From positions 43,898,001 through 43,962,000 of the forward strand of contig OZ076409.1 of assembly GCA_964187785.1 (NCBI GenBank): a DNA stretch of 64,000 bases, in the 5' to 3' direction. A program made the position numbers and the translations under genes. Source of the DNA: Amphiscolops sp. MND2022 (taxonomy: Eukaryota). The stretch's first letter is position 1. Every line of letters begins with the position of its first letter. Of the stretch, positions 13,739 to 34,677 are shown in pieces. Below the pieces are notes generated by a model. That model searched no databases. It was not told the DNA's origin and was given only the letters and a program-made list of their open reading frames with translations.

Positions 13739-14031
13739 ATGGATAACAGCAGTTATTATCTTGACAGTGACCAAAATATCTATATTGGACCCGATGTCAT
13801 GAAAGTTCAGAGGTCTTCTACACTTCCAGCGATACATTCTGCTGATAAAAATGATAAAAACAAGTCAGAAAGACGCACCAGTCGAACTTTCCACTCAGAA
13901 GAAAGGCCCATTACCAAGCAAACGAATCCGTACTTGCTGAAAATTTGGAAATCTCGCTCCTTGTCAAGGAGACACGTGGACAGAAGACTGGTTTTTAAGG
14001 TGGATGATGCTACTCCAGAGGCAGTTAAAAG
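13739..14031 (+). CDS. TTLL2: TTLL2-like exon 1
   Basis: ATG-initiated ORF ending RLVFKVDDATPEAVK-R; donor AG|GTGAGA. Confidence 0.8.
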
Positions 14032-17000
14032 GTGAGAAGGGTAATACTTCGGTTTATTATCCTTATTTTTAAATGCTTTATTTCTTCAAAAAATGCTTTG
14101 TTTTTTTTCAAAAATGTTCAACCTTGAAAGTTGTCAATCTATGCGTACTGGTTAAAATCAAAAACACAGGTTTTGCTCTTAGAACAACATCTGAATGTTG
14201 CACTAAAAAGGGCGTTAAAAAGCTAAAGACACTCGATTCCGCTAACAGCAAAAATTTTTGTATTCATTACAAACAAAATTTCAGACGCACAAATAAATTT
14301 TTTCAGAAACCATTTTCCAAAATCCAGAATAGTTTGGGAATTTTTGCTTTCTTCGAAATTCAAAATGCAATATCTTGCAAATCACGGGAGGCGAAAATTT
14401 CGTCACCAGAAATTTTGTCGTCAGAAATTTCGTCGTAAGAAATTTCGTCGTATTGATTAGAATTAACAGTGTTCATTTGAATTATTCAATTACTTAATTA
14501 TTGAAATGAGATCTTGAGAACAAGTTTCATTTTGACGCCAAAATTGAGTCAAAAAGTTAATTGCATTCAATCAACTCATCAAGACACTTATTGAGCAATG
14601 GTATATTTTCAGTCCTACCGGTGGAACTACTTACCGGGGCTTTACAATACAATTCAAGCTTGTTCCAGAGGGAATTTTGATTTTTTTTGTAAGAAAATTT
14701 TTGCTTAAGTGTCGAAACAACTTCGTGTTGGGATAAGAAACAAGGTGTATCGGGGGTGGGTGGTTGGTTGATAAGGAACATGGTCCGAAACTTTTTCTCT
14801 CAAAACCATGACTGAAAGTAGTCAATGATAGCAATAATTGCACAATTATTCAATAATTATTAAGATAATTATCAAGACTCAATAATCAGACAATTCCTAA
14901 TAGATTAGAGAAAATGCGACGTTTTATAGAACATAATCACCGACGACGAAATTTCTGGTAATCAATTCAAATTATATTCCCATAAGTCTTTGCTTCGACG
15001 AAGTTACACTAGTTTTGGCTCCTAATTTAACAAAGACTTACCTGGAAATTCTAAAACAAGTCAAGGAACAGTTCCAAGGCTACAATTTGATACGGGAAGA
15101 TTTTGTTCTGATCGGAACACAAACTACTTTATTAGGTTGGCATTATAAACCTATTACACGCGTTTGGAGATGATTGGTTTAGCGGAAGAACCCTTTGGAA
15201 GATGGATGGCGCCATTAGCTACGTTGAAAATTTAATCAGAAAAACAATTAACTCAACATACTCAATTGTCTCTTCTCGTTACAAAAATCTAGATAAGCAG
15301 AGTGCAGCATGAGGCATTCAACTATTCAGACAACTTTCGAAAATTTAAAGATGACGATTGTCAAGGTTCAAAAATCTCTCATTTACAAAGCGATATCTTT
15401 TTTAATGTTTGATTTCAAACGAAGCAAACCCTTGTAATTCGGATGAAAAATTGGGAGACTTTTGCTCTAGAGAGTTTTTGTCAACTTAATTGGACCCTCT
15501 TCTGAACAACGCATCCTTTGTCTTCAGAAAAGAAGTTGCTTGTCTCTATCTTTATTACAACTAAATCGGTACTTTAAATGAGGATAGAGATGCAACCTGT
15601 ACTATAGGCCGTATGTATAATTAAACAGTAAGTCCTCTAACTCCAGTTCATCCCCTTCTGCGATTGGCTGACACTTGGAAGAATTATCTTCTGGATGACG
15701 GCCTTCTGTTCATTGCCGGGTGTATTGTTTCTTCATTACGATACATATCCCTCAAAAGTGGAAAGTGATCACTTGGTGTAAAAAGTATTTTGCTTAGTGT
15801 TTAAGTTAGCGAAGTGGTTTTCTTCGTTTTTATAGTCGATTTCTGTGTTTGAGCTCTGATTGCTTACTAGCTCTATATCAGATGTTTCTATGTTACATTC
15901 GCCCCTCCCGCTGGCATTTAAACGGAATTTTCATATACTTTAGCGTTCTCATATCTCAGTGAAGCTCTTCATTTCTGCGTCAAGCGACTTTGATGACACT
16001 ATATATCTCCGTGTCTCACATGTTGGCGGGTACGATGATCAATGGTCCGATGTTGCTATGTGACTGGTCCATTTGTCCCGGTTAGCCAGGTATGATCCAT
16101 AGCTTTGCCGAGTTCTGTTTAGCTTCGATCGTTCTCTTCCAAAAGAGCAGGCTTTCAGGGTGCTCGTATTTCTGCTCCAGTGGTGTGGTGACAACCTCCT
16201 CTTCTTGGGTGGTTATTATTGCTACTTGTGGTTTTGCTACTTCGATATTGCTACTTGCGGTTTATCGGAATATGCCCTCTCGAACTTTGATTTCAAAGGT
16301 TTTGTTTCAAAACAAATGGCAATGGATAACTCCTTTGGCGCCTTTCGTCTGTTTCATCAGTAGCCCGTTAGAGACTCCACCAGCTCCGCTGAAGCAGTTT
16401 ACCAGTTAGGTACTAGGTTTTGCTGGAAAACAACCATTCGTTAGATATTTCAGAGTTCGCAGGACAAAAAGGTTACTAATTTGGGTATTTGATTTTCGGC
16501 GATAGTGTAGCTCAACGGTGGGTTTTCAAGTTTTGCATGTTCAAGTTGTCTTCCTCATTATTTTTGGAGACATGTCCAAAGCACTCCAAAAATTTTATCC
16601 AGCTTTTTTGATAACAGTCAGTAGACTTTCTCTCAAGGTTCTTACATCGCGGTCAATTATTCCGGCCGCGGTATGTTTTTACGGTGTACCGTATTTTAAT
16701 TTCAGGTATTGATTCCCAAAACAAGTCTGTTGTTCTCTTTACAAAAATCTAGATAAGCAGAGTACCGCAGGGCGCAGTCAACTATTTGGATAAAATTCAA
16801 CAAGACGGGAACGTCTAAAGTCGGAGCTATATCTAAGACTCAAAAAGCGCAAAGTTTTTAAAATTGTAAAAGGGGCACCCTTTCGACTTTTTTTGAAAAT
16901 CCAGTTTGTTGCAAAATATCAAAAAAAATGAAGGAGACTCTTTGGAGACATTTTTAAAAATTCGAAAAATTTTTTGAAAAAGGTTTCAAAAAAATGAAAA

Positions 17001-20000
17001 TTGAGAATTTTGAAACAGTCTCATAGTGCCGAAAACGTAGAAAGAGGAGACACTTCGGGCTTTTTGAAACTTCAGTTTGCTGCAAAATATCAAAAACCTT
17101 AAAGGGGTGACCCTTTGGAACAAAAAAATTCGAAAAAAAGTCGCACAGTGCCGAAAAAAAATTCAAAAGGGGGACCCTGTTGTCCCGTCCGGTTTTGCAT
17201 CTTTCGTTAGAGATTGAGTACGCGAAAGGGGACCCTTTGCACTAACTTATATGCTTTTCCGCTTGTCGGTGCAGTAGTTTAGTAGTTCTGTAGAAAAAGT
17301 GTTCACTACGCATACATTCTGTTATCTGACGAAAAAAAAACTTGCCACTGTAATAGTCGGGCACATTTTCTTAAAATGCACCGACTAAAAATTTAAAAAT
17401 GACGATTGACAAGTTACAAAAATCTTTACTTTACAGTGTTATATCATTTCTCGAAGTTTGATTTGTTTTCAAATAAAGCAAAACCTTCTAATTTGGATGA
17501 CAATTTAGACTTTTGCTCTTCAGATTCTGCCAAATTTTGACTACATCTTGGCGGCCATGAACCCCATGGCAAGATTTTTACCAAGATATTACCAAGATTC
17601 GTTATTCCAAGATCAAATTCTATCAAGATTAAAAATTGAATATTTCGGAGTTGGTGCCTTATTGGATTTTAAAAATGTTAAATTCATATCACAAGAAATA
17701 GAGCGCGTTCGAAGTCTTAAACTGCAATAATAGCTGTCTTTAGCTTTTTGGTACCAAGTGGTACCTTTTCAGCTACTGACAGACTGTCAAGCCAGTCAGT
17801 TTCCTTGATCTTCACTGGTTTGTTTCCATGGATTTATTCCCACTGCTTTGGTGTAAATCAGAAACTCGTGCAAGTATGAAGCAAGGATAAGTGAGTTTTG
17901 ATGTTGATGTATCACTTTTGATGACTATCAAACACAAGCACCCCAGTCAAAAGAGCCTTAGCGGTTGTGGTTGGAATATTTTGCTCGAATCAAATCAGCA
18001 GATAATAGCAGCTTTTGTACTTGTGTTTCATCGACGATTATAAACAATTTCCGTCCCGACTATTATTAAGTTCAATCGCCCAAAAAATTCAGTTCTCAAA
18101 TGAAAACCTCAGGTAACATATCTTTCTGCTAATGTAATTTCAACTTTTTAGGTCTCTTAGACAGCTTATTATTGACTTCGAAGAAAATTGTGGGGTGATA
18201 TGAATTTGTATTTCCGGAATTTTCCGCGAGCGTGGGTGGATGGAGTACGTGCGCAATGGGCCTGCCTCTCAGGATAAGTGGCACCTGTACTGGAAGTGTG
18301 CCACATTCAAGCCCTCGGACTACGACTTCTTGCTGGGTTGGCAGGTGATCAATCACTTCCCCAAAACATTCAATATCTCCAAGAAAGACTGTCTCGCACG
18401 AAACCTAAAAAGGTAATGATGCATTGTTTGTATCTTTAGCTGTAGAGGGAAGTCAGATTTTAGCAAAATTTGTGGCTATTTCTTGAACATGCGTGTTTGC
18501 CTCGATTAAAAGACTTCATTTCAACACTTTTATTCATTTTTGTCAACAACTTTTTTCTTTGGTGGTCTCTCCCCTCGTTTGGATGTTCTAGCAAAGAAAA
18601 CTAGAGCCTAAAGGGCAACTTTTTGGATGTTTTGGGCACGAATTCATTCCAATTTTGATTTAAAAATTCGAAAAAAATCTAGATTGTGGGATTCCCGTTC
18701 CAAGTTGGAAGAAAGTTCAGTTTTTGAGTTGGCCTCTGGTCTAAACGGCGTCCGGGGATGGTAAAATGTTTCCCTTATTTTTAACATTTTTATACTAACT
18801 AGAAAGGTAGACGCAACCAAAGGCTTCCCGAGGACAAAGGCGAGGGAATATTTTTTCTTTTAAATTTTTATTTTGGAACTCGATATAGATCTATATGCAT
18901 AAGCGCATGAACTAGTTTTCCGATCAGTAGACTTTTCAAGTTCCAAATGTTCCGATAACCATTTATAGTTATCATTCAGCATCCCCCAGCCAACTCCTGG
19001 TTGAATTTACCTGCAAAAAATTCTATCTTACAATTCTGGTTTGTACTCGAACTGCTGTATGAAATATTGATATTTGGAAAATGTTGAAGAAAGTTCCTGC
19101 AGTGTTTTAGAAGGTAGTTGAGGGGGTGTTAAGGACAGAAAACAACCAACTTTGCACTTCGGTATTAGAATTGCCATACCAAAAATTTTCGACACCATTT
19201 TAATCAGCATTTTGTTTCGAGAATCAGGTAAATTCAATTTCTGTGAAATATTTAACTAGTTGTTTGAGCCGGAAGCTGCATATTATTTGTTAACTCGGAG
19301 AAGATATGGTAAGAAGGGTGAATTAAATGTAATACAAATCAACACAAAGTAATGATCGTTAATGTATGAACTGTTCACTATCTGTATCATAGAGTTCAAC
19401 TTCGACTAATGTTCATACTGTAAAGCTCTTCATCGTAGGCACTGGCAGGTACTATGAACTAATTAGTTCATCTTTTTAGTGACGTCTACTTCTCATTCCC
19501 CCCTTTGTAAATCAGGGAAGCCATTGTTGAGCTTCTGTGGGTTCCCACTTGACCTTGACATCAGCTGTTGGGTTTTCCTTTTTGATTTTCGGAAAGGGTT
19601 GTCGCAGGAATCGTTGTAGTGGGCTGGAGAACTCTAAACGACTTAACCAATTAGAAGTACTCTACCCCTCCTAATTTTACGGTTCGCTTAGCGCCTTTTA
19701 TTCTACTTCATCTACGAAGGTCAGGTGACTCTGTTTGTATTTTATGGTTTTTTAATTCCTTTTTGTCTACTATTTTTAAGTTACCTCTTTTAGGGCTTTT
19801 TTTCCTTTTCTTCGGAGTGGCTTCGGTATTCACAGTGGCACGTATTGGCGTCTGTTGTTCGCCTTCCGGTTGTTTTGGTTGTGTGCCGTAACTGGTGCTA
19901 CATTGTACCGGCGTAGACGGTGGCGGTGTGTGTATCTCGGGTGCGGTTTCTTCTTCGTGCCGTTGCGTTTCCGCTGTGACGGTAGTGTTACTTGCTTGCG

Positions 20001-23000: not shown

Positions 23001-26000
23001 CAATTGTTCCGTTTGTTACACATATGATGTCATCTAGCCATACCGGTGTTTTAAATTCCAGCACTTTGTCGATGTCTTCCTGAAACACGGTAGGAATATC
23101 CGACAGTCCGTAGAATCCTTTCTTGAAACGGTAATGGCCGGTGAAATCACCGCCGATTATCGAAAATACACAATGTCTGGCTGCCTCCGCGGTTAATTTT
23201 GCTTGTCCGTAGGCGTAGTCCAAATCGATCTTTGACATCCAGATTTCTCCGTCGCTTCGGGTGATTTCCGCTGATATATTGCTGATCAGTTCTTCCATAT
23301 TTGGCATTGTTGCTTTTCTTTTGACACATGCCTCGTTCAATTTTCTTGAATCGAGGGCAATTTTTACGGACTTGTCTTTCTTTATTGTTATGACAGCCGG
23401 TGAGACGAAACAATTTTCTGTGGTGTTGTTTGCGTTTTCCAGGTGTCCGGTTTCGATTAGTTTCTTCAGTTCATTTTTGACCGTTTTTTGGAAATGTATT
23501 GGCACTTGTCGTCCTTTTTGTTGTATCGGCTTTGTGTCTTTTTTCAGTTGGATGTCGATTGCCAAATCTTTGATCGTATGGTTGTTTTTGAATGGGTCTT
23601 CGTATTCTTTTACGATCTTCTGTCTTCTTTCATCCGTTTCGATATATCTGATAATGTTCGTGTTCGTGTTCCCTTGTAGCCCGATTTCTAGTTTGTCCAG
23701 CCAATCCAGTCCCAGTAAGGGTTGGGTGTTTTTGTTCTCGGTTATTAATATGGGAAGTGTTATTTTGCTTTTCTCCGTTTTTACTTCCAACATGGTTTCA
23801 CCTTTGAACTTTATCGGGTTTTTATTTACGTCTACAAAGCTTTTTGTGGTTTTGTGTAATTCCGCTGTATTAATTATAGGCGGTATTATCGTTACCGGAG
23901 AGCCAGTGTCAATGATAAATTCTATTAGCTGTCCTTGAACCAATAGTATCGCTTTGTAGAAGTCGATCCGATTTATGCCGTTGACGGATTGGATGTGATC
24001 AATTTCGGGCCATGATTCGGTGTCACTGTCCGTTGACGGTCCTTTTTGTATCCGGCTGACGGTTTTGGATTTGCACACTTTGGCAAAGTGACCCATCTTC
24101 TTGCAGTTATTACACTGTGCTCTCCGTGCTGGACAAATATGTTCCATTGACCAATTTGGTTTACCGCAAAAGCGGCAATTACGGTTTGGTATTTTCTTCT
24201 TCCATGTTTCTGCGGTTTTTTGTTTCCGTATTGGTTGTGTGTGGGCGACTTGTTCTTCACTTGATGAACTTTCCAGTTTGACTTTTCGGGGTCGTTTATT
24301 TGCTTTTTTGTCTCCGTATTTGCGGTTGTAATTGTCTTGTTCAATGGTTTCGAGTACCATTTGAAGTTTCAGCGGTCCTTTTATGAATTTGTCTCGGGCT
24401 TTTTTGTCATTAATTGTTGCTGCAAATTTGTATGTAATGATTTCTTCCGGTGTGATGCTGTTGAATTCACATTTTCGCTCGATGTCCACTAATCTCTTCC
24501 AGTACTCGTCTAAAGTTTCATTTTCATCTTGTTGGATATTGAAAAATTGTGCCCGGCTGTGGAATACATTCCTTGCTGGTATGAATGTTTTCTTGAATAG
24601 CTTCAGCATTTCTGGGAGGTCAATATCTTTTAGCTCTTTGCCCCATTGTCCTCTCATGATTTCATGTTTGGCCTTGGGGCCTAAAGCCCAGATGACGTCT
24701 CCCTTGATATGGTACACCGTATGCGGATCCATTTGGTCGACGCCTTGATCCATCAATTCTTCTAGATTTCGGTTGTATGTGAGGTGTATGTATTCCGAAA
24801 TCTGCTCCCACCACATTCGTGGGTTTATCTTGGTGAGATCCGTTTCTCTATCCGATAAAATCGGTATTTTGTACTTGTTCTTCTCCAGTCTGTCTGCCGT
24901 CGTCTGGTTCATTATTGTCTGGTTTGCGGCTTGTTGCCCAGATCGTTCTGAGGTATTTGGGTCTGGGTTGTCCATTAGATTGCTGACTGCGCCATGTTAA
25001 GTCGGAGAAGATATGGTAAGAAGGGTGAATTAAATGTAATACAAATCAACACAAAGTAATGATCGTTAATGTATGAACTGTTCACTATCTGTATCATAGA
25101 GTTCAACTTCGACTAATGTTCATACTGTAAAGCTCTTCATCGTAGGCACTGGCAGGTACTATGAACTAATTAGTTCATCTTTTTAGTGACGTCTACTTCT
25201 CATTATTCACTTTCATCAACGAAAGATTACTACAGAGAATTCTAAGTTTTTGGCTATCAGCATTTCAAAAGATGCCATTGACATGAATTTATAGGATGAA
25301 AGCAGTGTACGGTGCGCATCTGTTCAACTTTTTCCCAAAGACATACATACTTCCAAAAGACTACCCCCGGCTGATCAGCCAGTACACGGACATGAAGGAA
25401 TGGAACCAGTGCGTGAAGAACCAGCTCAAGAGGTCTGCCAGACTCAGTCCCCGGAAAAACTCGGCCGGAAAGCGGGACTCCTCTCAAACTAGCGATTCAG
25501 CCAGCAGCAAAAACGCGGATGGCAGAGGTCGTAGATTGGAAATAGAGATTTCAATTTGAAAGATTTGTAATTTTCTTCAGACTTACATTCGGCAAGTAAA
25601 ATCCTACACTGAAAAAACTAATGCCATACTCTCACCTTCGCTAGTTTTAGAAATCAAATTTGGATGAATTCAGCAGAAACTAGAAGCCTTATTTTAAAGA
25701 AAAATATTTTGATCTATCACACAAGTTGAACGTGAAAAATCAGCAATACTTGTACGAAATGGACAGGTGACAATAAGTTTTCAAGTATCAACTAAGATAA
25801 ATATATTTTTGCTCGCTTTCTGTTTCCCAGAGTGACCGAACCTTATGATGTAATTGTTATTACTTTTTGTTCAATTATGTTTTGTAATTATTACAAAACC
25901 TCTCGAAATTTCCTTCCTCATTGAATAAAATTTTTTAAATAGACGAGCCGATCAATGCACATCCAGTTCTAGAAGTATTTTGATAAATGCCTGGTTTCAT

Positions 26001-29000
26001 TTGGACATCTTTATTATGTTCTTCATTTCCAACCGACACAGGAGATTGGACTACGTCACATCACCGCAAACGGAGGAGCAGCAGTCCGTCGAAAAGGAAG
26101 TACTCTTACAGCAATAGCAGCAGTGGAACCGATAAAAACAACAACAACAACAACAGTAGTAGTAGTAAAAACACAAAGAAAAACACAAAAAGCAATAAAA
26201 GCAAAGGATCAACCAGTCCCAACAAAAACGGAAACCGGGGCGATTCTAGCGACAACAACTCAGCAAGAAAGTCAAGCGGGTCTCCCGTTGGTAGTAAAAA
26301 CAGCGAAGCAAGAAACGACGAGAAGAGCTCAAAAACGAAAAAGGACGAAAAAACAAAAGATACAGCTAGTGAAAAAAAGAGTCAAGTGAAAAACGACGTT
26401 GACAGAAAGGAAGACAAGAAAACTGATGACAGAAAAAGTGGGAAAAGTCCGGAAAAGAACAAAGAAAAGAAGGGAGGTAGAAAGGACAGTAACAGTTTGC
26501 AGGGTAAGGTAACTGTCGATTCTAAGGCAGACAGCGATGACGGAGGTCGAAGCAAAAGATCAAATTCCGAGGGTAGTATCAAGAAAGGTAACCCCCAGGT
26601 ATAAAAGAGTGTGCGATACAATCATTAAAAATGGATGAAAATGAACATACTGTATCTTCCTTTTCAATTAAATAGAATTTATTTTTCAAAGCTTTTATGC
26701 AGCATTAGCCATTCAAATTTTGTATTCTAACTACAAAAACTAGACCTTTAGATTACAAGGGCTAGATTATAGGGCATATATAAAAGTTACAAAACTCAAT
26801 GAAAATAATGATATAGATGACAAAGTGTGGATCTTTGGAAGCCATGAAAAGATGCATGGCAAATCACTTGCTGAAACCTTTGTTTGGTTTTTATGACTTA
26901 TACAGCTCGAAACTTCAGTGTAAAAATTCATCAATGAACGAACTAGTGTAACGTTTGCCTGTCTCCGATTGAAAAGTTTGTTCCAGTAAATAGTCAGTTA
27001 CCGTTGATGACTTCCGCGTTTTTACAAAGCCTGTCCGAAGAACTGCAAAGGCTCAGAATCACATTTCGCCACCGTACCCATAACGAGAAAGAGAGCAAAT
27101 CAAACAAAAATCGCAGAAAAGACACCTGAAGTCTCATTTAGCAAAACTGCTATTTACGACAAGACGGACTTTGCACAAACTGGAGCTTTTCTTAGCAGAT
27201 TGCTACATATGGTGATAATTGCCTAAATAAGTCAGTTCATTCGACCAATCAAGTATACGGCGCCTGTATTCCCCTTCTAATTGCCAAATTGCCGCATGTC
27301 AAGTGTGCTGTAATTTATAGTTTTCTCGTTGTAAGAACTCGTGAGATACGATTTCATAATGTCTTGTACCTCGAAGAAATTCACCATTATTACCATTCAT
27401 TTTTGAACGTCTGTTTTAGCAGTGGTTTTGAAAAAAAGCGTAATTCACGTTGCTGACAGCAAATAAAGACTGGATCAGGCGGGTGAGTACTATGACGGAG
27501 CGGAATCCTCCTCTGACGGGACATTTTATATCTAAAGGGGGCAAAAAGGATCCATGGTTATGGGCGCCTGTCCCGGGTATATACCTATGCATTGGGTTCC
27601 TCCATCTCATCTCTACCAACGGAGAATCAATGGTAGCAGCTTGCCGTTACATGGAGACAAACCATTTTTCGGCGACCACAGAGGGATTGCTTCGGGGTTG
27701 GGATTACTTCCCTTAATGATTTTAAAAGAGCCGATCCTCTGGTGATTAGCGCCAAGTATGACCCGGAGGCACCAAGTATGGCGGAAGAGAAACCAGAGCT
27801 CTTTCACATTTTTTACCACGTATGTATGTCATTTGAGGCTTTCCGCCTTGTGTTTAACGGTATTTTCTTGGAAATGACCTGTATCAAATCATTTTCGGTA
27901 TTTTCTCTGACAAGTACATGTGGAATTATCTTGATCCTTTCAACAGGACACTCGGTAATGATCTAGCGTGCCGCTATTGGGCCGCAGAGAGTGTTAACAG
28001 ATGTTTTGCAGTCTATTTACATTTTCTAGCCATGCAAGCTGTTAGCACTTGCTCGGACGAAACCTACAATATGCCAAAACGAACGTTCACGTTTCACCCT
28101 TCCCATTTCTCGTGCAGACCTCCCAAAGAGATGGTCTTTAGTGAAATTGTAGCACAAGTGCTAACGTTTCTAACGGCCTAAATCATTTGCCTCTGGCTGG
28201 TTCGGTCGAAGAGAAATGATGGAAAGAAAGTGCGACTCCTCAATCCGGGTTGTATGAATTTTCGAGCTAGATCAAAAAACTTTTTTGGCTGCATCAAAAT
28301 TTGTGTGCGATCGTTTGCAAATCTTACATGCCTTCAATAGTGGGACAGACTACATTGGGCTATTTATAGACGGAACTAGTGGTGCATTACTGAAACTCAT
28401 TAAGAAAAAAATTGTCCTCGGGTTCGAAGGAGTGGGTTTGAAAAACTCTATCATAAATGCTTGCTCTTGTGCAGTCTAAAAGACTATTCTATTATTCTAC
28501 ACCTAAGTTGCAGAGCCGTCATTTTGCGAAGTGTTCAATTGAAATTTATATAAAAAGCTCATCATCAAAATCCGTGAAAAATGCTTTCACGGGTGATTAT
28601 ATTTGAATTTAAACGATCGAAAAATGAAACGAAGTAATACTTGTATCGCACAACCTTGTTCCCAGAACCCAGGTGGTATTACATGGATAGCCAAGCCGTC
28701 ATCAAACTCGCAAGGAAAGGGAATCCATATAATCAGAGACCTGAATGATTTGATGTTTAACACATCTACTGTGGTCCAGAGGTACATCGACAAGCCTATG
28801 CTTATATCTGGCTACAAATTCGATCTCAGACTCTACGTGATCATTGCCAGTTTTCACCCTTTGACAATCTACTTGTACAGGGTCAGTATTTGCCATGATG
28901 ATCTTTCTAGTTTTCGGTTTTCAACAATGATATGACACTTTCTGGATCTTGTACTGAATCTTTTTCAGTTGGAGTGTTCAACCAAAGACTCAACGTTCAA

Positions 29001-32000
29001 CCAAACCTTTTTTTCTCACTCAAGCATACAATAGAACTCAGCTCACAATCTGAGACTAGCTTTTTTTAATGAACTTTCAAAAAACATATAACTTTGTAGA
29101 GAAAAACAAAATTCCAGCCGATAGTTAATGTCAACGAAAATAAAAATATTTGCATTATTTCAGGAAGGTTTAGTGAGATTTGCAACAGACAAATTCGACA
29201 TGAACGAACTGACTAATGTGTACGCCCATCTGACTAACACCAGCATCAACAAAGGCAGCCCCTCTTACAGCGACAACAAAGACTCTGTAGGACCAGGTTA
29301 TTTGATCCAAGCAACTTTTCCTACATTTTAAGAAACCCGATTTCACTAGTCGATAGATCCATCCGTGTCCATTTCGTTGGGCTTTGATGGATCCTGTCTG
29401 CTTTCTTTAGAGCACTTTCCAGTAAAGAGTGTTCTGTATCAAGCTCAAGAACCACGAAATAATTCGAATTTACTGAAAATTAAAATTCCATACAGTCTCA
29501 CAGTGATGTCAATTGGAAAGCGTGACCTTTTGGCTTTTTTACACAAGTGGAAAATGTCAAGAGCTTGAAAAAAGGATACGTTGGAACAAAATAAATCTTC
29601 AAGTTGATAAAGCTAATGAAACTTTTCTTCCCAAACCTTTCGATCATTGTATTCAAACAACGGATAGCGACAATCTTGATGTCCATAATCAAAGTTGAAA
29701 GAATCCAATTTCAAAACCAGACATAGCAGCTGATTTTCGAAACGAGACGAGGTAGTCGAGATTATACACATCAAGTGTACATCAATTTAAGGTAAGTGGC
29801 ACAAAAGAGAGACCATTAAATTACAACGGCATTATGTTGAATGAAAGTTTCACATTGAGAGTTATTTGTTGAATCTAATGTTTCAATACGTTTTTGAATA
29901 CCATTTCCGCCCGGGTTTCCCGACCAGATTGATCATACTCTGATCATATATGGCCCCATACAAATCATACAAATTTTTTCCATGATTTTATTATGATCAA
30001 TCTGGAATCATATATGATTCAGAGTATGGTCAGCTTGTAACCATAAACTTCTACGGTCCAGTCTGAAACCATAAATGGACTTCTACGGTCCAGTCTGAAA
30101 CCATAAATGGACTTCTACGGTCCAGTCTGAAACCATAAATGGACTTCTACGGTCCAGTCTGAAACCATAAATGGACTTCTACGGTCCAGTCTGAAACCAT
30201 AAATGGTCCAGTCAGGAATCATAAATGGCCCAGACTATGATCAAACTGAAATCATGAACTTTTTCTACCCACGCGGGTTGCCGTGACATGCAATTTAATG
30301 AAAAACTTTCAGATATTAAGAACCGCCAGCTTCATGGGTTGAGTGCAGAACCGGCAATAGAGCCACGTTCGACCTTTCAGTGTGATTTCTGTTACTTTCG
30401 AGAAATATGATCACTAATTCAGCAAAAGCTGTCAGAAATTGATTATTGCGACCTTGTTTTCAGTTTTGTGATTGTATTGGAACTTTGATTGAGGAATATC
30501 TAGACATTTCATCAGTGTATGCGTTAATTGACTACGTTATCCTAATTTTCTATTAATGGCTCCAGACTGACTATGCTCTGGACCATATATGGTCCAGTCT
30601 ATGGCGAGTCTGTAATGTTTAATGAAATCACGTTGATCATAATATGGGCCATATATGGAAACAGGTTATTCATAGACTAAACCATATATGGGCCAGAGTG
30701 TGGTTAGCCTGGAACTATCTTCCAACCTTAGTATGATCAACCTGCTTTTGCATGATAGGGAATCTCGGGAAAAGTGATTAGATGGATAATTCTTAAAAAC
30801 ACATCGATTAGATTTTTGAGGATTTGCTTCTGTTCAACGAAGGCTTTTATTTTTGAATAAAAATCAGGAAAGCTACTTTTATCATACTTTTCTCTCAAAC
30901 TGACTGTTTTGTCTTAAATTCAGAATCGGGTATTTTGTCTCGTTCAATAAATCGCGTGTTTTGTCCCATTTATAATCGAATGTTTTTTAAAAATTTTTGG
31001 CCTTGTTTTTCATTTTTTTCAGAGACGAAAAATCTTACTTTTCGACGGGGAACTTTTTTCCCTCTGCCAGTTTCTGCCATGACTTCGTGCCATACCTTCT
31101 ATTATTTCACTCCAATTCATATGCGGCGTGATATGCACTTGGCCTACCCTTAACGTGGATAGCACAGAGTTTCTCAAAGAGTACGGTTGTTCGGGTCCCG
31201 CGGTGGACCATTTTTTACGCTCTTAAATGTAAAGGGGAGATGAAAGGCGTTTTTTTGGCCTCATGTGACATTTTCTCTGCGCTTTTCAAGTCATAGGCCC
31301 CTTGCTTTTTAGCAGAAAGAAACGAAGCGTTCTGTGAGCCTATAGGGCCAATCAAAGTTTTTCGGCACTGTGCGACTCACCAAAAACGTTCCAAAACGTT
31401 TATTTTACCATTTGGGTTTTAGAGGTTTTCTGTTGAGGAAAACCATTTTACGAGTCTTAAGGGTAACCTCTTTGGTTATTTTTTGGTCCTGTGTGACTAA
31501 CAAGAGTTTTTGGAATAGTTGTGAAAAGATCTACATTTTTTCCGGCTCTGAGCGACTTTGACTTTTTGAGATTTTTTTTGTCTTCACTTGAGGTTCGCTG
31601 TCTCAGTTGTTTTATGTTTTCACTTCAGAAACCGGCTTTTACGAGTTTTTTCGGTCAAACCGAAAAGATAATTTTGGCACTTTGCAACGTTTTTCGAACA
31701 AAAGTTTGCCAGGGAAAATCATAAATACGGGTTTTCGTGAATTTTAGTTGAGAAGTCTTTTTCAACCCTCAGAAGTCCTCATTGGACATTGTCTGTTGTA
31801 ACATTATACGACCAATATCTCCTGCTCAGTTAATATATTTAAACCCGAATTAATGATTTTTCCTGACACATTTCTGATCGACACTATAGTGTGTACGAAT
31901 GGCGGCTTTATGTTTTTAGTAGTTCTAAATGAATTTTTTAAACAGTTTCAGAGACGATGACTTGAGAATTTTACTTTTTTTGAAATGTTTCGTTCAAATA

Positions 32001-34677
32001 AACTTCTTTGTCGAAAAATGCTATAACTGATTACGTCATGGCCGACCGTCCTTTATCCGTAGAAATCTTTGTGTCCAATTGAACTTCAGCTGATTTTTTT
32101 GTCAGCCTGTTAGAATAGAAGAATTTTGTTAAACCAAGAATTGAATACCTTGTATGCAAATTAAACGCATTAGAGTCGATTGATATTACATGGTATACGT
32201 TGTATCAGAATGTGTGGGTGATTCAGTTCGACATGAAAAGTGTTGACCAGTGAATATTTCATGACAAGCAGAAAATGTTGGAAATTGTGGGAAACAGCTG
32301 AGGAAAATTTCTAGGTTTCAAGAAATCAGAAAATATTAATTTTACAAGATTAGACTCCAAGTTACCTCTGCCAAGAACAAAATTCTCAGAAAAACATTTT
32401 TCAAATTGTAGTAAATTTCAAATTTTTGTGAAAGATTTTGTATTGTGTCAATATGACCATACAAAAGCGATGTATCATCTAATTACTAATTAGTGAGAAG
32501 AGAGAGTCTATAGTACTATAGTAGAAGAAGAGTTTATTTCCCCAATTCCGACTGGTGGACGCCGAATAACCAGTTCTGCTTTTCTAAGTCGGTGCCACTG
32601 ACCATACCACTACGCTAGGAATGGAAGACTTGCTTAAGGCCCAACAAAGGTGAGTTGAGAGAGGTTCGAACCTGATGCCGCCCCAGTACAGGCCGAGTGC
32701 TTTAACTACTACGCCATGCTCCCCTGAGGAGTCATTCTAAATGAACAAGTTGGCCAACTTTTTGGTTTTTGGTAAGTATTTTACTTATAAGTAAAATACT
32801 TACCAAAAACCAAAAAGTTGGCCAACTTGTTCATTGAAGAGCAAAGAAGAGCAATCTACTGACTCGTATAATAATATGGAGTTAACTTAAAGCAACGGGC
32901 GGGTCATTTATCATCCTGGGAAAGAGTATAAACAAAAATTAATGCATGTTTTCACTCTTTCCCAGGATGATAAATGACCCGCCCGTTGCTTTTAGTTAAC
33001 TCCATATTATTATACGAGTCAGTAGATTGCTCTTCTTTGCTGTTTATAAGGAGAGACGATCTTACCTCAGTTAAAAACTTTTGACAGTGAACAAAAAACT
33101 TGATGTCACGATTGAATCAAACCCTTGCAAGGATGTCAAAAATGCTTTCAGGTTGCATTTGGGCGCTGAGCAGACTCAGAGCGTACTTGGAAAATGAAAA
33201 CTCGTCGACCAAAAGGCACCCCTCGTTTACATGGCACAAAATTGCCAATATTATTTGTCTTACTATTCTCACCCTGTCCAATCACATTCCCCCACAGGTC
33301 AGTGATGAATCATCAACAATGATGAAAATTCTTATAACTGGATCCACGAAAAACGATTCCAATGCACTTGAAAAAAGTAAAAAGAAATAAATTTGTCATT
33401 AGAGTAGCAAAGATTGGGGCCATTTGAAGTGTCGTGAACAATTTAAAACGATGAAACATAAAATGAAGCTGGAACGTTGCTTAAAACTTCTAGACTCAGA
33501 AAACTCTAAGATGTTTTTGTCAATGAGTAGTCTTAGAGATGGTTTTATGGATGGTATTCAATTTCAAGATGATTCTATTAAGTTTTCAAAAAGTGAAGAG
33601 ATTAAACAAGCTAGCTTTTTGGAATTCTTCTCACCACTTAACAGGCCTACAACTGCTTTGAACTTTTGGGATTCGACATCTTATTGGACGAGAGATTGAA
33701 ACCTTGGCTCCTTGAAGTCAACATTAGTCCTGCCCTCACTACAAACACCCATCTGGATGCCCACGTCAAACTTGGAGTATTACGTCACACAGTTTTTCTT
33801 TGCGAGAGGTTGTTTTTCTCGGAGTTCGATGATCAAGACGATGATGGTAGCAACGAACTTACCATCTACAGATATCATCGGGACACGGCTGGAAAGAAGC
33901 GTTCGCGGAATAATTTCATTCGTTCCAATCCATCAGACTTTTTCCAGCCCCGAGTTGGTGTGTTTAGTCGGAGTAGGTACCAGAAACCAATTCCCACTTC
34001 TTTGGGGGACCTGAGGTGAGGGGCGGCTGGATGGTTTTTTCATTGCTTTGTTTTTCAATATACAATTGATGTTTTTGCAAAGTAAATTGAGCAATCTCCA
34101 ATTTTTATATATATTTCTGGAAAAATTCAACTGAAAGATAACCGATAGGCAAGTTAGATGGGTTTGTTAGAATGATAAAAATTGAATCAAGGTATAAATT
34201 TGTGAGCAATCACCGTGTAACTACCAAAAGACTTGGACCATGTTTATAGACAAGATCAGAAAAGTACAAACGAATTTAGTCTGACACAACTTCAGTTTCT
34301 GGACTTTTTTTATAGAAGTCGCTTCTTGATTAGAAAAGTTTTTTTCTATTATTCGAAAACTACGTCAACCTCCTAATTCCACTTTAACTACTTTTGCAAG
34401 CATTAGCAGCAATTTTCAATGACATCACATTGAAAATGTTAGTGGTAAATTTTTGACGGTAGTAGCAATCAGTCGTCCCTGCCAAAGGTTGATATTCCCT
34501 TTCAACGATGAGACAAGAAGAGCGACCAGTACCGAGTTTCATGACACTAGGACGGCTGTTTTGGAGATACAGAAAAGAGATGCCATTGTACAGAGACGTC
34601 TAGAGTCATACAGTGCCAAGAAAAGGTCGAATAGCACTAATCAGAAAATGGAAAACCTTTTATTATGGTGTCCTTGA
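13739..34677 (+). CDS. TTLL2: Tubulin polyglutamylase, TTLL2-like (9 coding exons, about 771 aa)
   Basis: Exons 13739-14031, 18218-18412, 25295-25527, 26042-26587, 28673-28881, 29164-29296, 33152-33297, 33645-34015, 34488-34677 join in frame (2316 nt). Motifs: LVFKVDDATPEAVKRIFRERGW, WHLYW, INHFP, KKDCLARNLKRM, FPKTYILPKDY, WIAKP, VQRYI.KPMLI.GYKFDLRLYV, EGLVRFAT, HLTNTSINK, CFELLGFDILLD..LKPWLLEVN.SP, LIFPFN. TTLL2 subfamily call is from recalled similarity. Confidence 0.88.
14385..14964. mobile_element. MITE with AAATTTCGTCGT subterminal repeats (copy 1)
   Basis: Homologous along its length to 61141-61718; inverted GAAATTTCGTCG / CGACGAAATTTC ends. Confidence 0.7.
16799..17390 (+). mobile_element. 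Helentron/DINE-1-like non-autonomous element
   Basis: Starts AACAAGACGGGAACGTCTAAAGTCGG, ends with hairpin TAGTCGG...CCGACTA then an A run; internal repeats; no TSD; family recurs at 36528, 38836, 54185 and 63150. Confidence 0.7.
18218..18412 (+). CDS. TTLL2: TTLL2-like exon 2 (non-canonical GG acceptor)
   Basis: IFRERGWMEY...WHLYWK...QVINHFPKTFNISKKDCLARNLK; donor AG|GTAATG. Confidence 0.88.
19288..19495 (-). repeat. 3' LTR of Gypsy element 1
   Basis: Direct repeat of 24995-25202, adjacent to the PPT. Confidence 0.95.
19708..20451 (-). CDS. Integrase C-terminal extension, separated from Gag-Pol by one in-frame TAA
   Basis: Same frame, ATG directly after the stop; YQFFEK...HTITTSDGKIIHKK matches the contiguous IN tail of element 2 (FQFFEK...HTVTTDTGKIIHRK); contains CVRC-x7-CDTH. 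Confidence 0.75.
   Translation of the reverse strand: MADYLIPNDSKKRNRSVSKEFKQYQFFEKENKPNAMKCRFKTNKILTAVNETKHTITTSDGKIIHKKLASKPIKFQLPKKPEEKKKPTNRCVRCGKFSQGKYCDTHKRVYGITDEPGCSYTLPTKPEKRSTYADVIETSNGQDASTEEQGPQASNTTVTAETQRHEEETAPEIHTPPPSTPVQCSTSYGTQPKQPEGEQQTPIRATVNTEATPKKRKKSPKRGNLKIVDKKELKNHKIQTESPDLRR
20452..24975 (-). CDS. Gypsy Gag-Pol polyprotein (Gag with two zinc knuckles, PR, RT, RNase H, IN), 1507 aa
   Basis: CRFC..H.C and CNNCKKMGHFAKVC; IDTGS; SKIDLDYAYGQ, FYGL, WLDD; TTDAC, ELELL, TDHQAL, DYLSR; HQGH...CPSC, LDFAGP, TDNGSCF, VERTIRTIK. Confidence 0.95.
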   Translation of the reverse strand: MDNPDPNTSERSGQQAANQTIMNQTTADRLEKNKYKIPILSDRETDLTKINPRMWWEQISEYIHLTYNRNLEELMDQGVDQMDPHTVYHIKGDVIWALGPKAKHEIMRGQWGKELKDIDLPEMLKLFKKTFIPARNVFHSRAQFFNIQQDENETLDEYWKRLVDIERKCEFNSITPEEIITYKFAATINDKKARDKFIKGPLKLQMVLETIEQDNYNRKYGDKKANKRPRKVKLESSSSEEQVAHTQPIRKQKTAETWKKKIPNRNCRFCGKPNWSMEHICPARRAQCNNCKKMGHFAKVCKSKTVSRIQKGPSTDSDTESWPEIDHIQSVNGINRIDFYKAILLVQGQLIEFIIDTGSPVTIIPPIINTAELHKTTKSFVDVNKNPIKFKGETMLEVKTEKSKITLPILITENKNTQPLLGLDWLDKLEIGLQGNTNTNIIRYIETDERRQKIVKEYEDPFKNNHTIKDLAIDIQLKKDTKPIQQKGRQVPIHFQKTVKNELKKLIETGHLENANNTTENCFVSPAVITIKKDKSVKIALDSRKLNEACVKRKATMPNMEELISNISAEITRSDGEIWMSKIDLDYAYGQAKLTAEAARHCVFSIIGGDFTGHYRFKKGFYGLSDIPTVFQEDIDKVLEFKTPVWLDDIICVTNGTIDDHEREIREVLTKLQNAGYRASERKTELFKQEITWLGYHIDQKGVKPIKDKTEAITKLMAPKNAKELKSFLGSIQHLAKFINNLSKKTDRMRRLLKKETHWELTPKIDEDFENLKKEITEPPCLAHFDPKKENYVTTDACNTGLGATLWQKEGEIFRPVAFASRFLTDCERKYAINELELLGALWGLEYFRYFVYGKRVNLLTDHQALQPLLKRNRAHKQYTARLTRRLDRLSHFDVNVQYTAGKNIPLTDYLSRHPIVNTDESAAENNLNGQNETESEEEFVINQIHGLFDFIQTNGSIKRFTERTKPRQKIDQSQHGICKREQNRQTHLLKTSIPLNGVNKIASVNSSNRSAKPSSMDKINGIDMHFIFKKRGHSPDTLRLWTERKRLLKPEKLRIVGKGTHNERLQEYRPSQQVRKRIVELNVQIYNRFFSFCDTLGTTPLKEFQQNNYESWITQSSDTESQTSNVRQEKCPTNAIKKFRKHETINLIRLKQTVKTNNLDDEHNERTEETIKKAEKDFALDLPMLVEETAKDTKILNAITAVEKNQIEEIFYPYRPHRYHLTTRFGLLFYNDKNVIPEAMRSTIIAMLHQGHPSATKMDQSSAAFWWPGLYREIKEKAENCPSCRSSGKNLTTQLPSTEKNYLEILSEPNQEIQLDFAGPIKSKTRGDVYILVAVDRFSKWPTAKICKNTDTRTVLKFLTEYCSDNGTPRSVRTDNGSCFKSNEFKEFCNQENIKRIRCIPNLHTGTGQVERTIRTIKSLTRANMADGLTFEESVKLAIKTIRQTPHSKLNMTPFQMHYGRKPRTAITNLIGRSECLLSNWKKTLANYVSAQPTELQMFTINDSEG
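24995..25202 (-). repeat. 5' LTR of Gypsy element 1
   Basis: Direct repeat of 19288-19495, adjacent to the PBS. Confidence 0.95.
25295..25527 (+). CDS. TTLL2: TTLL2-like exon 3
   Basis: TAG| acceptor; MKAVYGAHLFNFFPKTYILPKDY; 3' boundary (G|GTCGTA) less certain. Confidence 0.85.
26042..26587 (+). CDS. TTLL2: TTLL2-like exon 4 (Ser/Lys/Asn/Asp-rich low complexity)
   Basis: Open 546-nt frame, CAG| acceptor and G|GTAACC donor, phase 1-1; an alternative donor at 26598 pairs with an alternative acceptor at 28666. Confidence 0.7.
28673..28881 (+). CDS. TTLL2: TTLL2-like exon 5
   Basis: WIAKPSSNSQGKGI...VVQRYIDKPMLISGYKFDLRLYV; donor |GTCAGT. Confidence 0.92.
29164..29296 (+). CDS. TTLL2: TTLL2-like exon 6
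   Basis: TTTCAG| EGLVRFATDKF...HLTNTSINK. Confidence 0.92.
29910..30769. mobile_element. Fold-back/MITE-like element with internal minisatellite
   Basis: Termini CCCGGGTTTCCC...TTGATCATACT and AGTATGATCAA...GGGAATCTCGGG are inverted; many CCATATATGG/CCAGTCTG sub-repeats. Confidence 0.6.
30047..30206. repeat. Perfect 32-bp tandem repeat, five copies
   Basis: ACTTCTACGGTCCAGTCTGAAACCATAAATGG at 30047, 30079, 30111, 30143 and 30175. Confidence 0.95.
32522..32724 (-). mobile_element. tRNA-derived SINE
   Basis: - strand GGAGCATGGCGTAGTAGTT (A box) ... GGTTCGAACC (B box), then CCTTAAGCAAGTC (CORE-like) and an AATAAA plus (CTT)n tail. Confidence 0.65.
32740..32835. repeat. Perfect 96-bp palindrome, no spacer
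   Basis: AATGAACAAGTTGG...TACTTA|TAAGTA...CCAACTTGTTCATT. Confidence 0.95.
32840..33041. repeat. Inverted repeat, 88-bp arms with a 26-nt spacer
   Basis: 32840-32927 is the reverse complement of 32954-33041 with one visible mismatch. Confidence 0.95.
33152..33297 (+). CDS. TTLL2: TTLL2-like exon 7
   Basis: TTTCAG| GCIWALSRLRAYL...WHKIANIICLTIL; donor CAG|GTCAGT. Confidence 0.88.
33645..34015 (+). CDS. TTLL2: TTLL2-like exon 8
   Basis: AYNCFELLGFDILLDERLKPWLLEVNISPAL; donor AG|GTGAGG. Confidence 0.92.
34488..34677 (+). CDS. TTLL2: TTLL2-like terminal exon
   Basis: LIFPFND...LLLWCP*; alternative in-frame acceptor at 34473; AATAAA at 34702. Confidence 0.8.

What the first reader, a model, noticed from the sequence alone, without database searches (positions are those of the whole stretch)
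14032..18217. TTLL2 intron 1 appears to be a non-canonical GT...GG intron
Seen: exon 1 ends AAA AG|GTGAGA (phase 2). The next conserved block begins TTTCCGG|A ATT TTC CGC GAG CGT GGG TGG. An in-frame TGA sits at 18201, there is no AG between it and 18218, and the next AG (18230) is in the wrong phase. Splicing at CGG| gives LVFKVDDATPEAVKRIFRERGW, colinear with the TTLL2 motif as I recall it (LVFRVDETTP.VV..VLLERGW). The other seven introns can be GT-AG and the gene is otherwise intact. Inference: this lineage's spliceosome may accept GG 3' splice sites, or this is an allele or assembly error.
Basis: partly seen in the sequence, partly recalled or inferred. Interest (0 to 1): 0.75.

Follow-up and report, generated by a model that had tools for sequence, protein, structure and literature searches.

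The report
Lone GG-ending intron in acoel TTLL2
The first intron of this acoel worm's only TTLL2 gene ends in GG instead of the near-universal AG, and one sequenced transcript is joined exactly there; it is likely a rare one-off exception of a known kind handled by an ordinary splicing machine, though a variant allele or an assembly error at that base is not excluded.

Summary
Observation confirmed. Intron 14032-18217 starts GT and ends CGG. Every nearby AG tested gives a premature stop, and the GG junction yields an intact 777-aa TTLL2 that is colinear with homologues. One 151-nt record of run X1 joins exon 1 to exon 2 at this place with no mismatch. It is a single molecule, and no read covers base 18216.

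The lineage-wide idea is not supported. In 17 dynein genes plus PRP8, 0 of 644 introns called (428 well anchored) end in GG, with about 91% detection power; the upper bound is about 0.8%. U2AF1 is single-copy and keeps its AG-reading residues; PRP8 Q1594 and the Prp18 loop are intact.

The site is one transition from TTCCAG and has more exonic A plus poly-U than all 427 canonical introns (post hoc), which favours a real, compensated GG acceptor (about 0.66) over an allele (0.2) or an assembly error (0.07). GT-GG introns are known (human BANP; 6 in Drosophila). The scan noted similar single GG acceptors in other genomes.

The parts
13739..14031 (+). TTLL2 exon 1 (coding part from the first ATG), ends ...TAAAAG, phase 2
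   Evidence: X1 records lie on 13773-13923 and 13990-14030
14032..18217 (+). Intron 1, 4186 nt, U2-type donor GTGAGA, ends TTTGTATTTCCGG (GT-GG)
   Evidence: donor context 86th and acceptor context 66th percentile of 427 canonical introns
18205..18217 (+). U-rich tract and the CGG acceptor; G at 18216 stands where A is expected
   Evidence: 7 T in positions -13..-5; TTCCAG is the 4th commonest acceptor hexamer, 34 of 427
18172..18177 (+). Candidate branch site (TTGACT), inferred
   Evidence: GTGAC and TGACT are enriched at -45..-12 in this genome's introns; not shown to be used
18218..18412 (+). Exon 2, 195 nt, starts AA, phase 2-2 (skipping it keeps the frame)
   Evidence: single DNA match in G000
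25295..25527 (+). Exon 3
26042..26598 (+). Exon 4, low-complexity K/S/N-rich insert
   Evidence: 46% identity to relative P0001; boundaries set by frame and GT-AG
28666..28881 (+). Exon 5, TTL domain
   Evidence: PF03133, E 2.5e-26; best named hits are TTLL2
29164..29296 (+). Exon 6
33152..33297 (+). Exon 7
33645..34015 (+). Exon 8, TTL domain
   Evidence: PF03133, E 1.3e-16
34488..34677 (+). Exon 9 to the stop codon

Best explanation
Intron 1 of the single TTLL2 gene ends in GG in the assembly and one transcript record is joined at exactly that place; it is likely a genuine, isolated U2-type GT-GG intron that likely arose by one A-to-G change from TTCCAG and is likely removed by an ordinary major spliceosome. 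Inferred mechanism: a strong donor (AAG|GTGAGA) and a U-rich tract let U1 and the large U2AF subunit define the intron without the U2AF1 contact to the -2 adenine. After branching, no AG lies in the 32 nt before the site, and the next AG (13 nt downstream) has a very poor context. The terminal G is still present, and adenosines on both exon ends (AAAAG|, |AA) would pair with the U-rich loop 1 of U5 and hold the site for exon ligation. Shown: the sequence, the reading frame, one joined record, the rarity of GG acceptors in other genes, and the ordinary splicing-factor residues. Inferred: that G18216 is fixed in the species, and every mechanistic step.
For: Joined record at the predicted place with 0 other letters. 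Only this junction gives the full 777-aa frame while keeping exon 2. The gene is single-copy and otherwise intact. Donor context is at the 86th and acceptor context at the 66th percentile; 24 of 427 canonical introns are at least as strong at both ends. The AG at 18230 scores below all 271 canonical acceptors then in hand. PMC10711555 (passages) names poly-U tracts and exonic adenosines as features that favour non-consensus 3' sites in yeast. Here: 4 A in the last 5 nt of exon 1 (30 of 427 introns), AA at the start of exon 2 (18 of 427), 7 T at -13..-5 (65 of 427 have 7 or more); the sum, 13, exceeds all 427 canonical introns (maximum 12). A base hit at random by an error or a null allele would be expected in an average context. 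Precedent: BANP GT-GG derived from GT-AG and is conserved across most vertebrates (PMC4176328 section 18); 6 GT-GG among about 60,000 Drosophila introns (PMC4528330 passages). Mutating -2A weakens U2AF1 binding less than mutating -1G (PMC7505975 passages).
Against: No read covers 18216, so the joined record could come from a CAG allele. The junction rests on one record of depth 2, probably one molecule, in a run that holds none of this organism's cytoplasmic dynein exons and is dominated by other organisms. The compensation score was built after I had seen the site; in the yeast paper the downstream-A enrichment was seen for alternative AG and GAG sites, not for BG sites; and the exonic As are also constrained by the K-R-I codons. 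Known GT-GG introns mostly have a canonical alternative nearby (5 of 6 in Drosophila; BANP's is an alternative site), whereas this one would be obligate, which is rarer. U2AF1 Cys27 strongly prefers A at -2 and is unchanged here.
Confidence: 0.66

Rival explanations
1. G18216 is a real but segregating splice-damaging allele that the haploid assembly happens to show. The working allele ends in CAG and produced the joined record; the G allele would give exon 2 skipping (in frame, 712 aa) or decayed transcripts.
For: The site is one transition from the common TTCCAG (34 of 427). Acoel genome projects report high heterozygosity in wild populations (PMC9911081 passages). False non-canonical junctions from SNPs are a known trap (PMC4176328 passages). 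Exon 2 skipping keeps the frame.
Against: Both X1 records match the assembly at all 302 letters, which fits the assembled haplotype, but the heterozygosity needed to weigh this could not be measured. The context is more permissive than all 427 canonical introns on the post hoc score. No second copy or haplotig of exon 2 was found in G000.
Confidence: 0.2
2. G18216 is a consensus error of the assembly and the true intron is GT-AG.
For: A single substitution explains everything, and a genome-wide scan picks out such outliers.
Against: In 428 well-anchored introns no acceptor AG was confidently broken (the one GC-GA call has a canonical alternative), and the 302 exonic letters covered by X1 show no error. 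Neither test is strong enough to exclude one error. The unusual context is not expected for a random error.
Confidence: 0.07
3. The lineage's spliceosome has relaxed 3' splice-site selection and GG (or other non-AG) acceptors are a regular class, as in Fritillaria.
For: PRP8 has G in place of S two residues after the -3-reading glutamine (human S1524, yeast 1596); 117 of 120 homologues have S, 2 have A and 1 has G. Changing that glutamine relaxes the -3 and -2 positions in yeast (PMC12707134 abstract and passages).
Against: 0 GG acceptors in 644 introns called, 428 well anchored. Recovery of in-silico AG-to-GG changes was 294 of 323 and 115 of 126 well-anchored introns; the upper bound is about 0.8%. 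U2AF1 is single-copy with F20, C27, R28, H29, S34 and the second-finger R/C/N/F contacts kept. PRP8 Q1594, W1575, E1576 and W1609 equivalents are kept. The Prp18 conserved loop aligns to yeast Prp18. PRP8 carries other scattered substitutions at conserved columns (17 listed), so S1524G may be plain divergence.
Confidence: 0.03
4. The transcript is joined by another route: a micro-exon spliced to the AG at 18230, the shifted register GG..CG, or a U12-type reaction.
For: A canonical-only alignment can be forced through a 13-nt micro-exon at 15786-15798 and the AG at 18230. The join is ambiguous by one letter. The GT-GG introns tabulated in PMC1557818 are U12-type.
Against: The record joins exon 1 directly to 18217/18218 with no letters between. 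GG..CG would need two non-canonical ends and would discard a strong GT donor. The donor GTGAGA is not the U12 GTATCC type (consensus recalled; one search looked for it).
Confidence: 0.04

Closest known systems
GT-GG intron of vertebrate BANP (Parada et al. 2014, PMC4176328; sections 17-18 and passages read)
   Same: GT donor, GG acceptor, derived from an AG by one change, RNA support at the GG.
   Different: BANP's GG is an alternative acceptor shown conserved across vertebrates. Here it would be the only frame-keeping acceptor, support is one record, and conservation is untested.
Drosophila GT-GG introns (FlyBase rule-benders, PMC4528330 Table 3; passages read)
   Same: One-base departure from GT-AG in an otherwise ordinary animal genome, at about 1 in 10,000 introns (6 of about 60,000).
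   Different: 5 of 6 have a similar canonical alternative; this one has none in frame.
U12-type GT-GG introns such as ARAF and SLC12A7 (Sheth et al. 2006, PMC1557818 Tables 2-3; passages read)
   Same: Same terminal dinucleotides.
   Different: This donor is GTGAGA, U2-type, not U12-type.
Lineage-wide non-canonical introns of Fritillaria borealis (PMC13326754; abstract and outline read)
   Same: An animal intron without a terminal AG.
   Different: There 95% of introns break GT-AG and the U2AF subunits are duplicated; here 427 of 428 well-anchored introns end in AG and U2AF1 is single-copy.
BG 3' splice sites of yeast prp18 and Prp8-Q1594A mutants (PMC10711555, PMC12707134; passages read)
   Same: Use of an NG acceptor helped by a poly-U tract; exonic adenosines.
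   Different: Those need mutant splicing factors; here the Prp18 loop and the Prp8 glutamine are intact.

Membership tests
U2-type GT-GG non-canonical intron (BANP, Drosophila type) | GT donor with U2 consensus | tested here: met
   AAG|GTGAGA, 86th percentile of 427 canonical donors
U2-type GT-GG non-canonical intron (BANP, Drosophila type) | U2-like pyrimidine tract ending in GG in the genome sequence | tested here: met
   TTTGTATTTCCGG in the assembly; context at the 66th percentile
U2-type GT-GG non-canonical intron (BANP, Drosophila type) | Transcripts joined at the GG | tested here: met
   One record, 0 other letters, one-letter register ambiguity
U2-type GT-GG non-canonical intron (BANP, Drosophila type) | The G at -2 is real and on the haplotype that gave the spliced RNA | tested here: inconclusive
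   No DNA run was listed; X1 does not cover 18216; the heterozygosity test failed
U2-type GT-GG non-canonical intron (BANP, Drosophila type) | Conservation of the GG in related species | not testable with these tools
   No relative genome is held; none of the 80 metagenome loci kept (of 108 confirmed) is a close relative, best 51% over nearly all of exon 2; the DNA behind P0001 could not be fetched
U12-type GT-GG intron (ARAF type) | U12 5' consensus (GTATCC; recalled) | tested here: not met
   Donor is GTGAGA
Fritillaria-type lineage-wide non-canonical splicing | Most introns lack GT-AG | tested here: not met
   412 GT-AG, 15 GC-AG and 1 unresolved of 428 well-anchored introns
Fritillaria-type lineage-wide non-canonical splicing | Duplicated, divergent U2AF1 | tested here: not met
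   1 match among 8 candidates scored; AG-contact residues kept
Fritillaria-type lineage-wide non-canonical splicing | Duplicated U2AF2 | not tested
   Not searched
Fritillaria-type lineage-wide non-canonical splicing | Changed m6A pattern on U1 and U6 snRNA | not testable with these tools
   Needs RNA modification data
Relaxed second-step fidelity (prp18 loss, Prp8 Q1594A type) | Loss or change of the Prp18 conserved loop | tested here: not met
   One Prp18 gene; the loop aligns to yeast Prp18
Relaxed second-step fidelity (prp18 loss, Prp8 Q1594A type) | Change at Prp8 Q1594 or at the flanking suppressor sites W1575, E1576, W1609 | tested here: not met
   All four kept; S-to-G two residues after the glutamine
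Relaxed second-step fidelity (prp18 loss, Prp8 Q1594A type) | Changes in SLU7, PRP22 or FAM192A/Fyv6 | not tested
   Not searched
TTLL2 tubulin polyglutamylase family | TTL (PF03133) domain with TTLL2 as the best named homologues | tested here: met
   enzyme activity not tested and no tree was built

The most novel reading that the evidence does not exclude
This is an obligate, fixed GG acceptor, and it belongs to a small class of non-AG acceptors (above the roughly 0.01% of other animals, below the 0.8% bound found here) that acoels tolerate because the PRP8 alpha-finger carries a Ser-to-Gly change beside the glutamine that reads the 3' splice site, with exon-end adenosines selected to hold such sites on U5 loop 1. 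That would be a natural animal counterpart of the yeast alpha-finger fidelity mutant.
Probability: 0.06. Interest if true: 0.65.

Novelty: new member of a known kind. Interest (0 to 1): 0.25.

Why it matters
If real, it is one more natural GT-GG intron. It is unusual in being the only frame-keeping acceptor of an intact single-copy gene, and it gives a clean minigene test of whether exonic adenosines and a poly-U tract can stand in for the -2 adenine in an animal. In practice, annotation that demands AG will truncate TTLL2 or invent a micro-exon here. It does not show a new splicing code for the lineage.

Tried and rejected
Sequencing runs: only X1 was listed (kind unknown); no RNA holder was listed as such and no DNA run, so 18216 could not be read. 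The second lay, on cytoplasmic dynein (L195), was meant to measure allele differences and count junctions. It returned 6 records that fit only in part, none at 99% or more, so it gave no heterozygosity estimate. A homologue search with exon 2 alone found none. The metagenome scan kept 80 of 108 confirmed loci, none a close relative. P0001, a close relative (94% in exon 5), starts at exon 3 and says nothing about the junction. A haplotig check with L051 (contig C336) found no match among the G000 loci held, and its GC is 48%, so it gave no divergence estimate.

Micro-exon route: produced only by the canonical-only alignment and contradicted by the direct join. U12 type: rejected on the donor. 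Retrocopy as the source of the joined record: no second match of exon 2 DNA or of the protein at high identity. A nested (stwintron-type) origin of an AG was considered from the sequence and rejected, because the bases before exon 2 are CCGG.

The 17 non-AG calls among 644 are spread over 11 dinucleotide pairs, none ending GG. 16 are in poorly anchored alignments and the 17th (GC-GA, gene g17) has a canonical alternative; I treat them as alignment noise. One whole-gene alignment run timed out and was redone in chunks.

Literature: searches for acoel non-canonical splice sites and passages of three acoel genome papers showed no report of GT-GG or other non-canonical introns in acoels. The library lacks most subscription papers and I read no supplements.
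Full report
What is there. The window holds one host gene, a tubulin polyglutamylase of the TTLL2 type: PF03133 in exons 5 and 8, with TTLL2 as the best named homologues. It has nine exons between 13739 and 34677 and a 777-aa frame without internal stop. It is the only high-identity match in G000. G000 is a 1.07-Gb genome with 2,388 matches to the spliced leader published for an acoel and 0 for the reversed control (motif from PMC9911081). I therefore call the organism an acoel, without naming a species. An earlier scan note says the same.

The observation. Intron 1 begins GTGAGA at 14032 and ends TTTGTATTTCCGG at 18217. A TGA at 18201 closes the frame upstream. The nearest AGs end at 18183 and 18230, both out of phase. 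Five alternative AGs and intron retention all stop translation within 98-136 aa; skipping exon 2 keeps the frame but deletes 65 conserved residues. The junction peptide has the same spacing as the closest full-length homologue, P0004. A spliced aligner written here found the GT-GG junction from homologues alone. When limited to AG it either invented a 13-nt micro-exon or dropped exon 1. The other seven introns are GT-AG; the boundaries of introns 3 and 4 flank a low-complexity exon and were set by frame and by the relative P0001.

RNA evidence. One run was listed, of unknown kind. Laid on 13600-33000 it gave 2 records, both 151 nt, depth 2, with 0 other letters. One joins 14030 to 18217, skipping 4186 nt with one ambiguous letter, so the intron is GT..GG or GG..CG. 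GT..GG keeps a strong donor and is the likely register. This removes the micro-exon route for that molecule. It is one molecule. The run does not hold this organism's dynein exons and is mostly other organisms, so these look like stray reads. No record covers 18216, so the spliced RNA cannot be tied to the G.

Is GG a lineage rule? I tiled 1.40 Mb over 17 dynein heavy-chain genes (whole or in part) and PRP8. I aligned them to profiles of homologues with a splice model trained on this genome that allows any acceptor at a penalty. Of 644 introns called, 428 were well anchored (eight ungapped, well-scoring codons on each side): 412 GT-AG, 15 GC-AG and 1 GC-GA that has a canonical alternative. None of the 644 ends in GG. 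When AG was changed to GG in silico, the method recovered 294 of 323 and 115 of 126 well-anchored introns, and 112 of 146 and 45 of 61 weak ones (two genes occur in both sets). The 95% upper bound is about 0.8%, or 0.5% with all calls. Limits: these are conserved genes, not a random sample; donors were limited to GT and GC; non-AG ends needed a non-negative context score. The bound excludes a Fritillaria-like code (95% non-canonical, PMC13326754 abstract) but not a rate a few times above the Drosophila figure of 6 in about 60,000.

Splicing factors. U2AF1 has one match in G000 and keeps the residues that PMC7505975 (passages) places on the -3, -2 and -1 bases. The PRP8 alpha-finger keeps the equivalents of yeast Q1594, W1575, E1576 and W1609. 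It has G for S two residues after the glutamine, where 117 of 120 homologues have S; this is one of 17 departures at conserved columns listed for this PRP8 and has no visible effect in the intron count. Prp18 is present with its conserved loop. SLU7, PRP22 and U2AF2 were not examined.

Real site, allele or error? TTCCGG is one transition from TTCCAG, 34 of 427 canonical acceptors, so all three readings start from the same ancestral sequence. For a real, tolerated site: a strong donor (86th percentile), a good acceptor context (66th), 32 nt free of AG before the site and a very weak next AG. On three features taken from the yeast study of non-consensus 3' sites (PMC10711555 passages) the site scores 4 A before the donor, 2 A after the acceptor and 7 T in the tract. 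No canonical intron among 427 matches all three or reaches the sum of 13. This score was made after seeing the site, the exonic letters are codon-constrained, and the paper saw downstream As at AG and GAG rather than BG sites, so I count it as moderate support. Against: obligate GT-GG introns are rarer than alternative ones (5 of 6 Drosophila cases have a canonical neighbour; BANP's is alternative), and SNPs are a known source of false cases. My odds, which are judgement: real fixed GT-GG 0.66, allele 0.20, assembly error 0.07, other route 0.04, lineage rule 0.03.

Mechanism (inferred). The major spliceosome defines the intron through U1 at the strong donor and the large U2AF subunit on the U tract, with weakened U2AF1 binding: Cys27 prefers A at -2, but -1G matters more. 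After branching, possibly at TTGACT near 18175 (motif enriched in this genome), the CGG is the first well-placed YNG. The terminal G can still take its place in the active site, and A-rich exon ends would be held by U5 loop 1. Efficiency may be reduced, with in-frame exon 2 skipping as the expected by-product.

Comparison and verdict. It works like the one-base GT-GG exceptions known from BANP and Drosophila and meets their tested features, except proof that the G is real on the expressed haplotype. It is not U12-type and not Fritillaria-type. Three searches and passages of three acoel genome papers showed no report for acoels; supplements were not read. Earlier scan notes describe single GG acceptors in other genomes and none near this window. 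Verdict: a new member of a known kind, interest 0.25.

Noticed in passing
window 19708-24996 (-): LTR retrotransposon inside intron 2 with a 1514-aa open frame (gag, protease, RT, RNase H, integrase hits); the domain order is Gypsy-like (recalled).
   Followed up: partly
window 43795-49021 (-) and about 2300-7400: A second, fragmented Gypsy-like element and pieces that resemble BEL/Pao elements (ORF list; the resemblance is recalled, not tested).
   Followed up: no
window 34472 and 34487: The last TTLL2 intron ends in a weak AAG that scores below all 271 canonical acceptors; a CAG ending at 34472, 15 nt upstream, is in frame and could be an alternative acceptor (read; my notebook entry gave a wrong position, 34466).
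   Followed up: partly
window 26042-26598: A 185-residue K/S/N-rich low-complexity exon interrupts the TTL domain; the close relative P0001 has it too, while P0004 has only a short linker.
   Followed up: partly
window 13720-13738: An AG ends 9 nt before the start codon after an AT-rich stretch; it could be a spliced-leader trans-splice acceptor, untested.
   Followed up: no
G000:C4:84164092-84164397 (L178:4092-4397): The PRP8 alpha-finger has Gly at the position of human S1524 (yeast 1596); 117 of 120 homologues have Ser.
   Followed up: partly
G000:C4:84156036-84159288: A PRP8 intron begins GTATCC, like a U12 donor, but no U12-type branch sequence was seen at its 3' end.
   Followed up: partly
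G000:C7:57944328-57944906 (L213, L367): U2AF1 lies in one uninterrupted 238-codon frame, single copy.
   Followed up: partly
G000:C1:16.23-16.41 Mb and genome-wide: The spliced-leader motif has 2,388 matches, with a tandem array of about 904-bp period on C1.
   Followed up: no
18 genes sampled in G000: GC-AG introns are 15 of 428 well-anchored introns (3.5%), above the 1% animal average in PMC7072748 Table 1; small sample, no RNA check.
   Followed up: no
window about 53980-54180: A 200-N scaffold gap.
   Followed up: no
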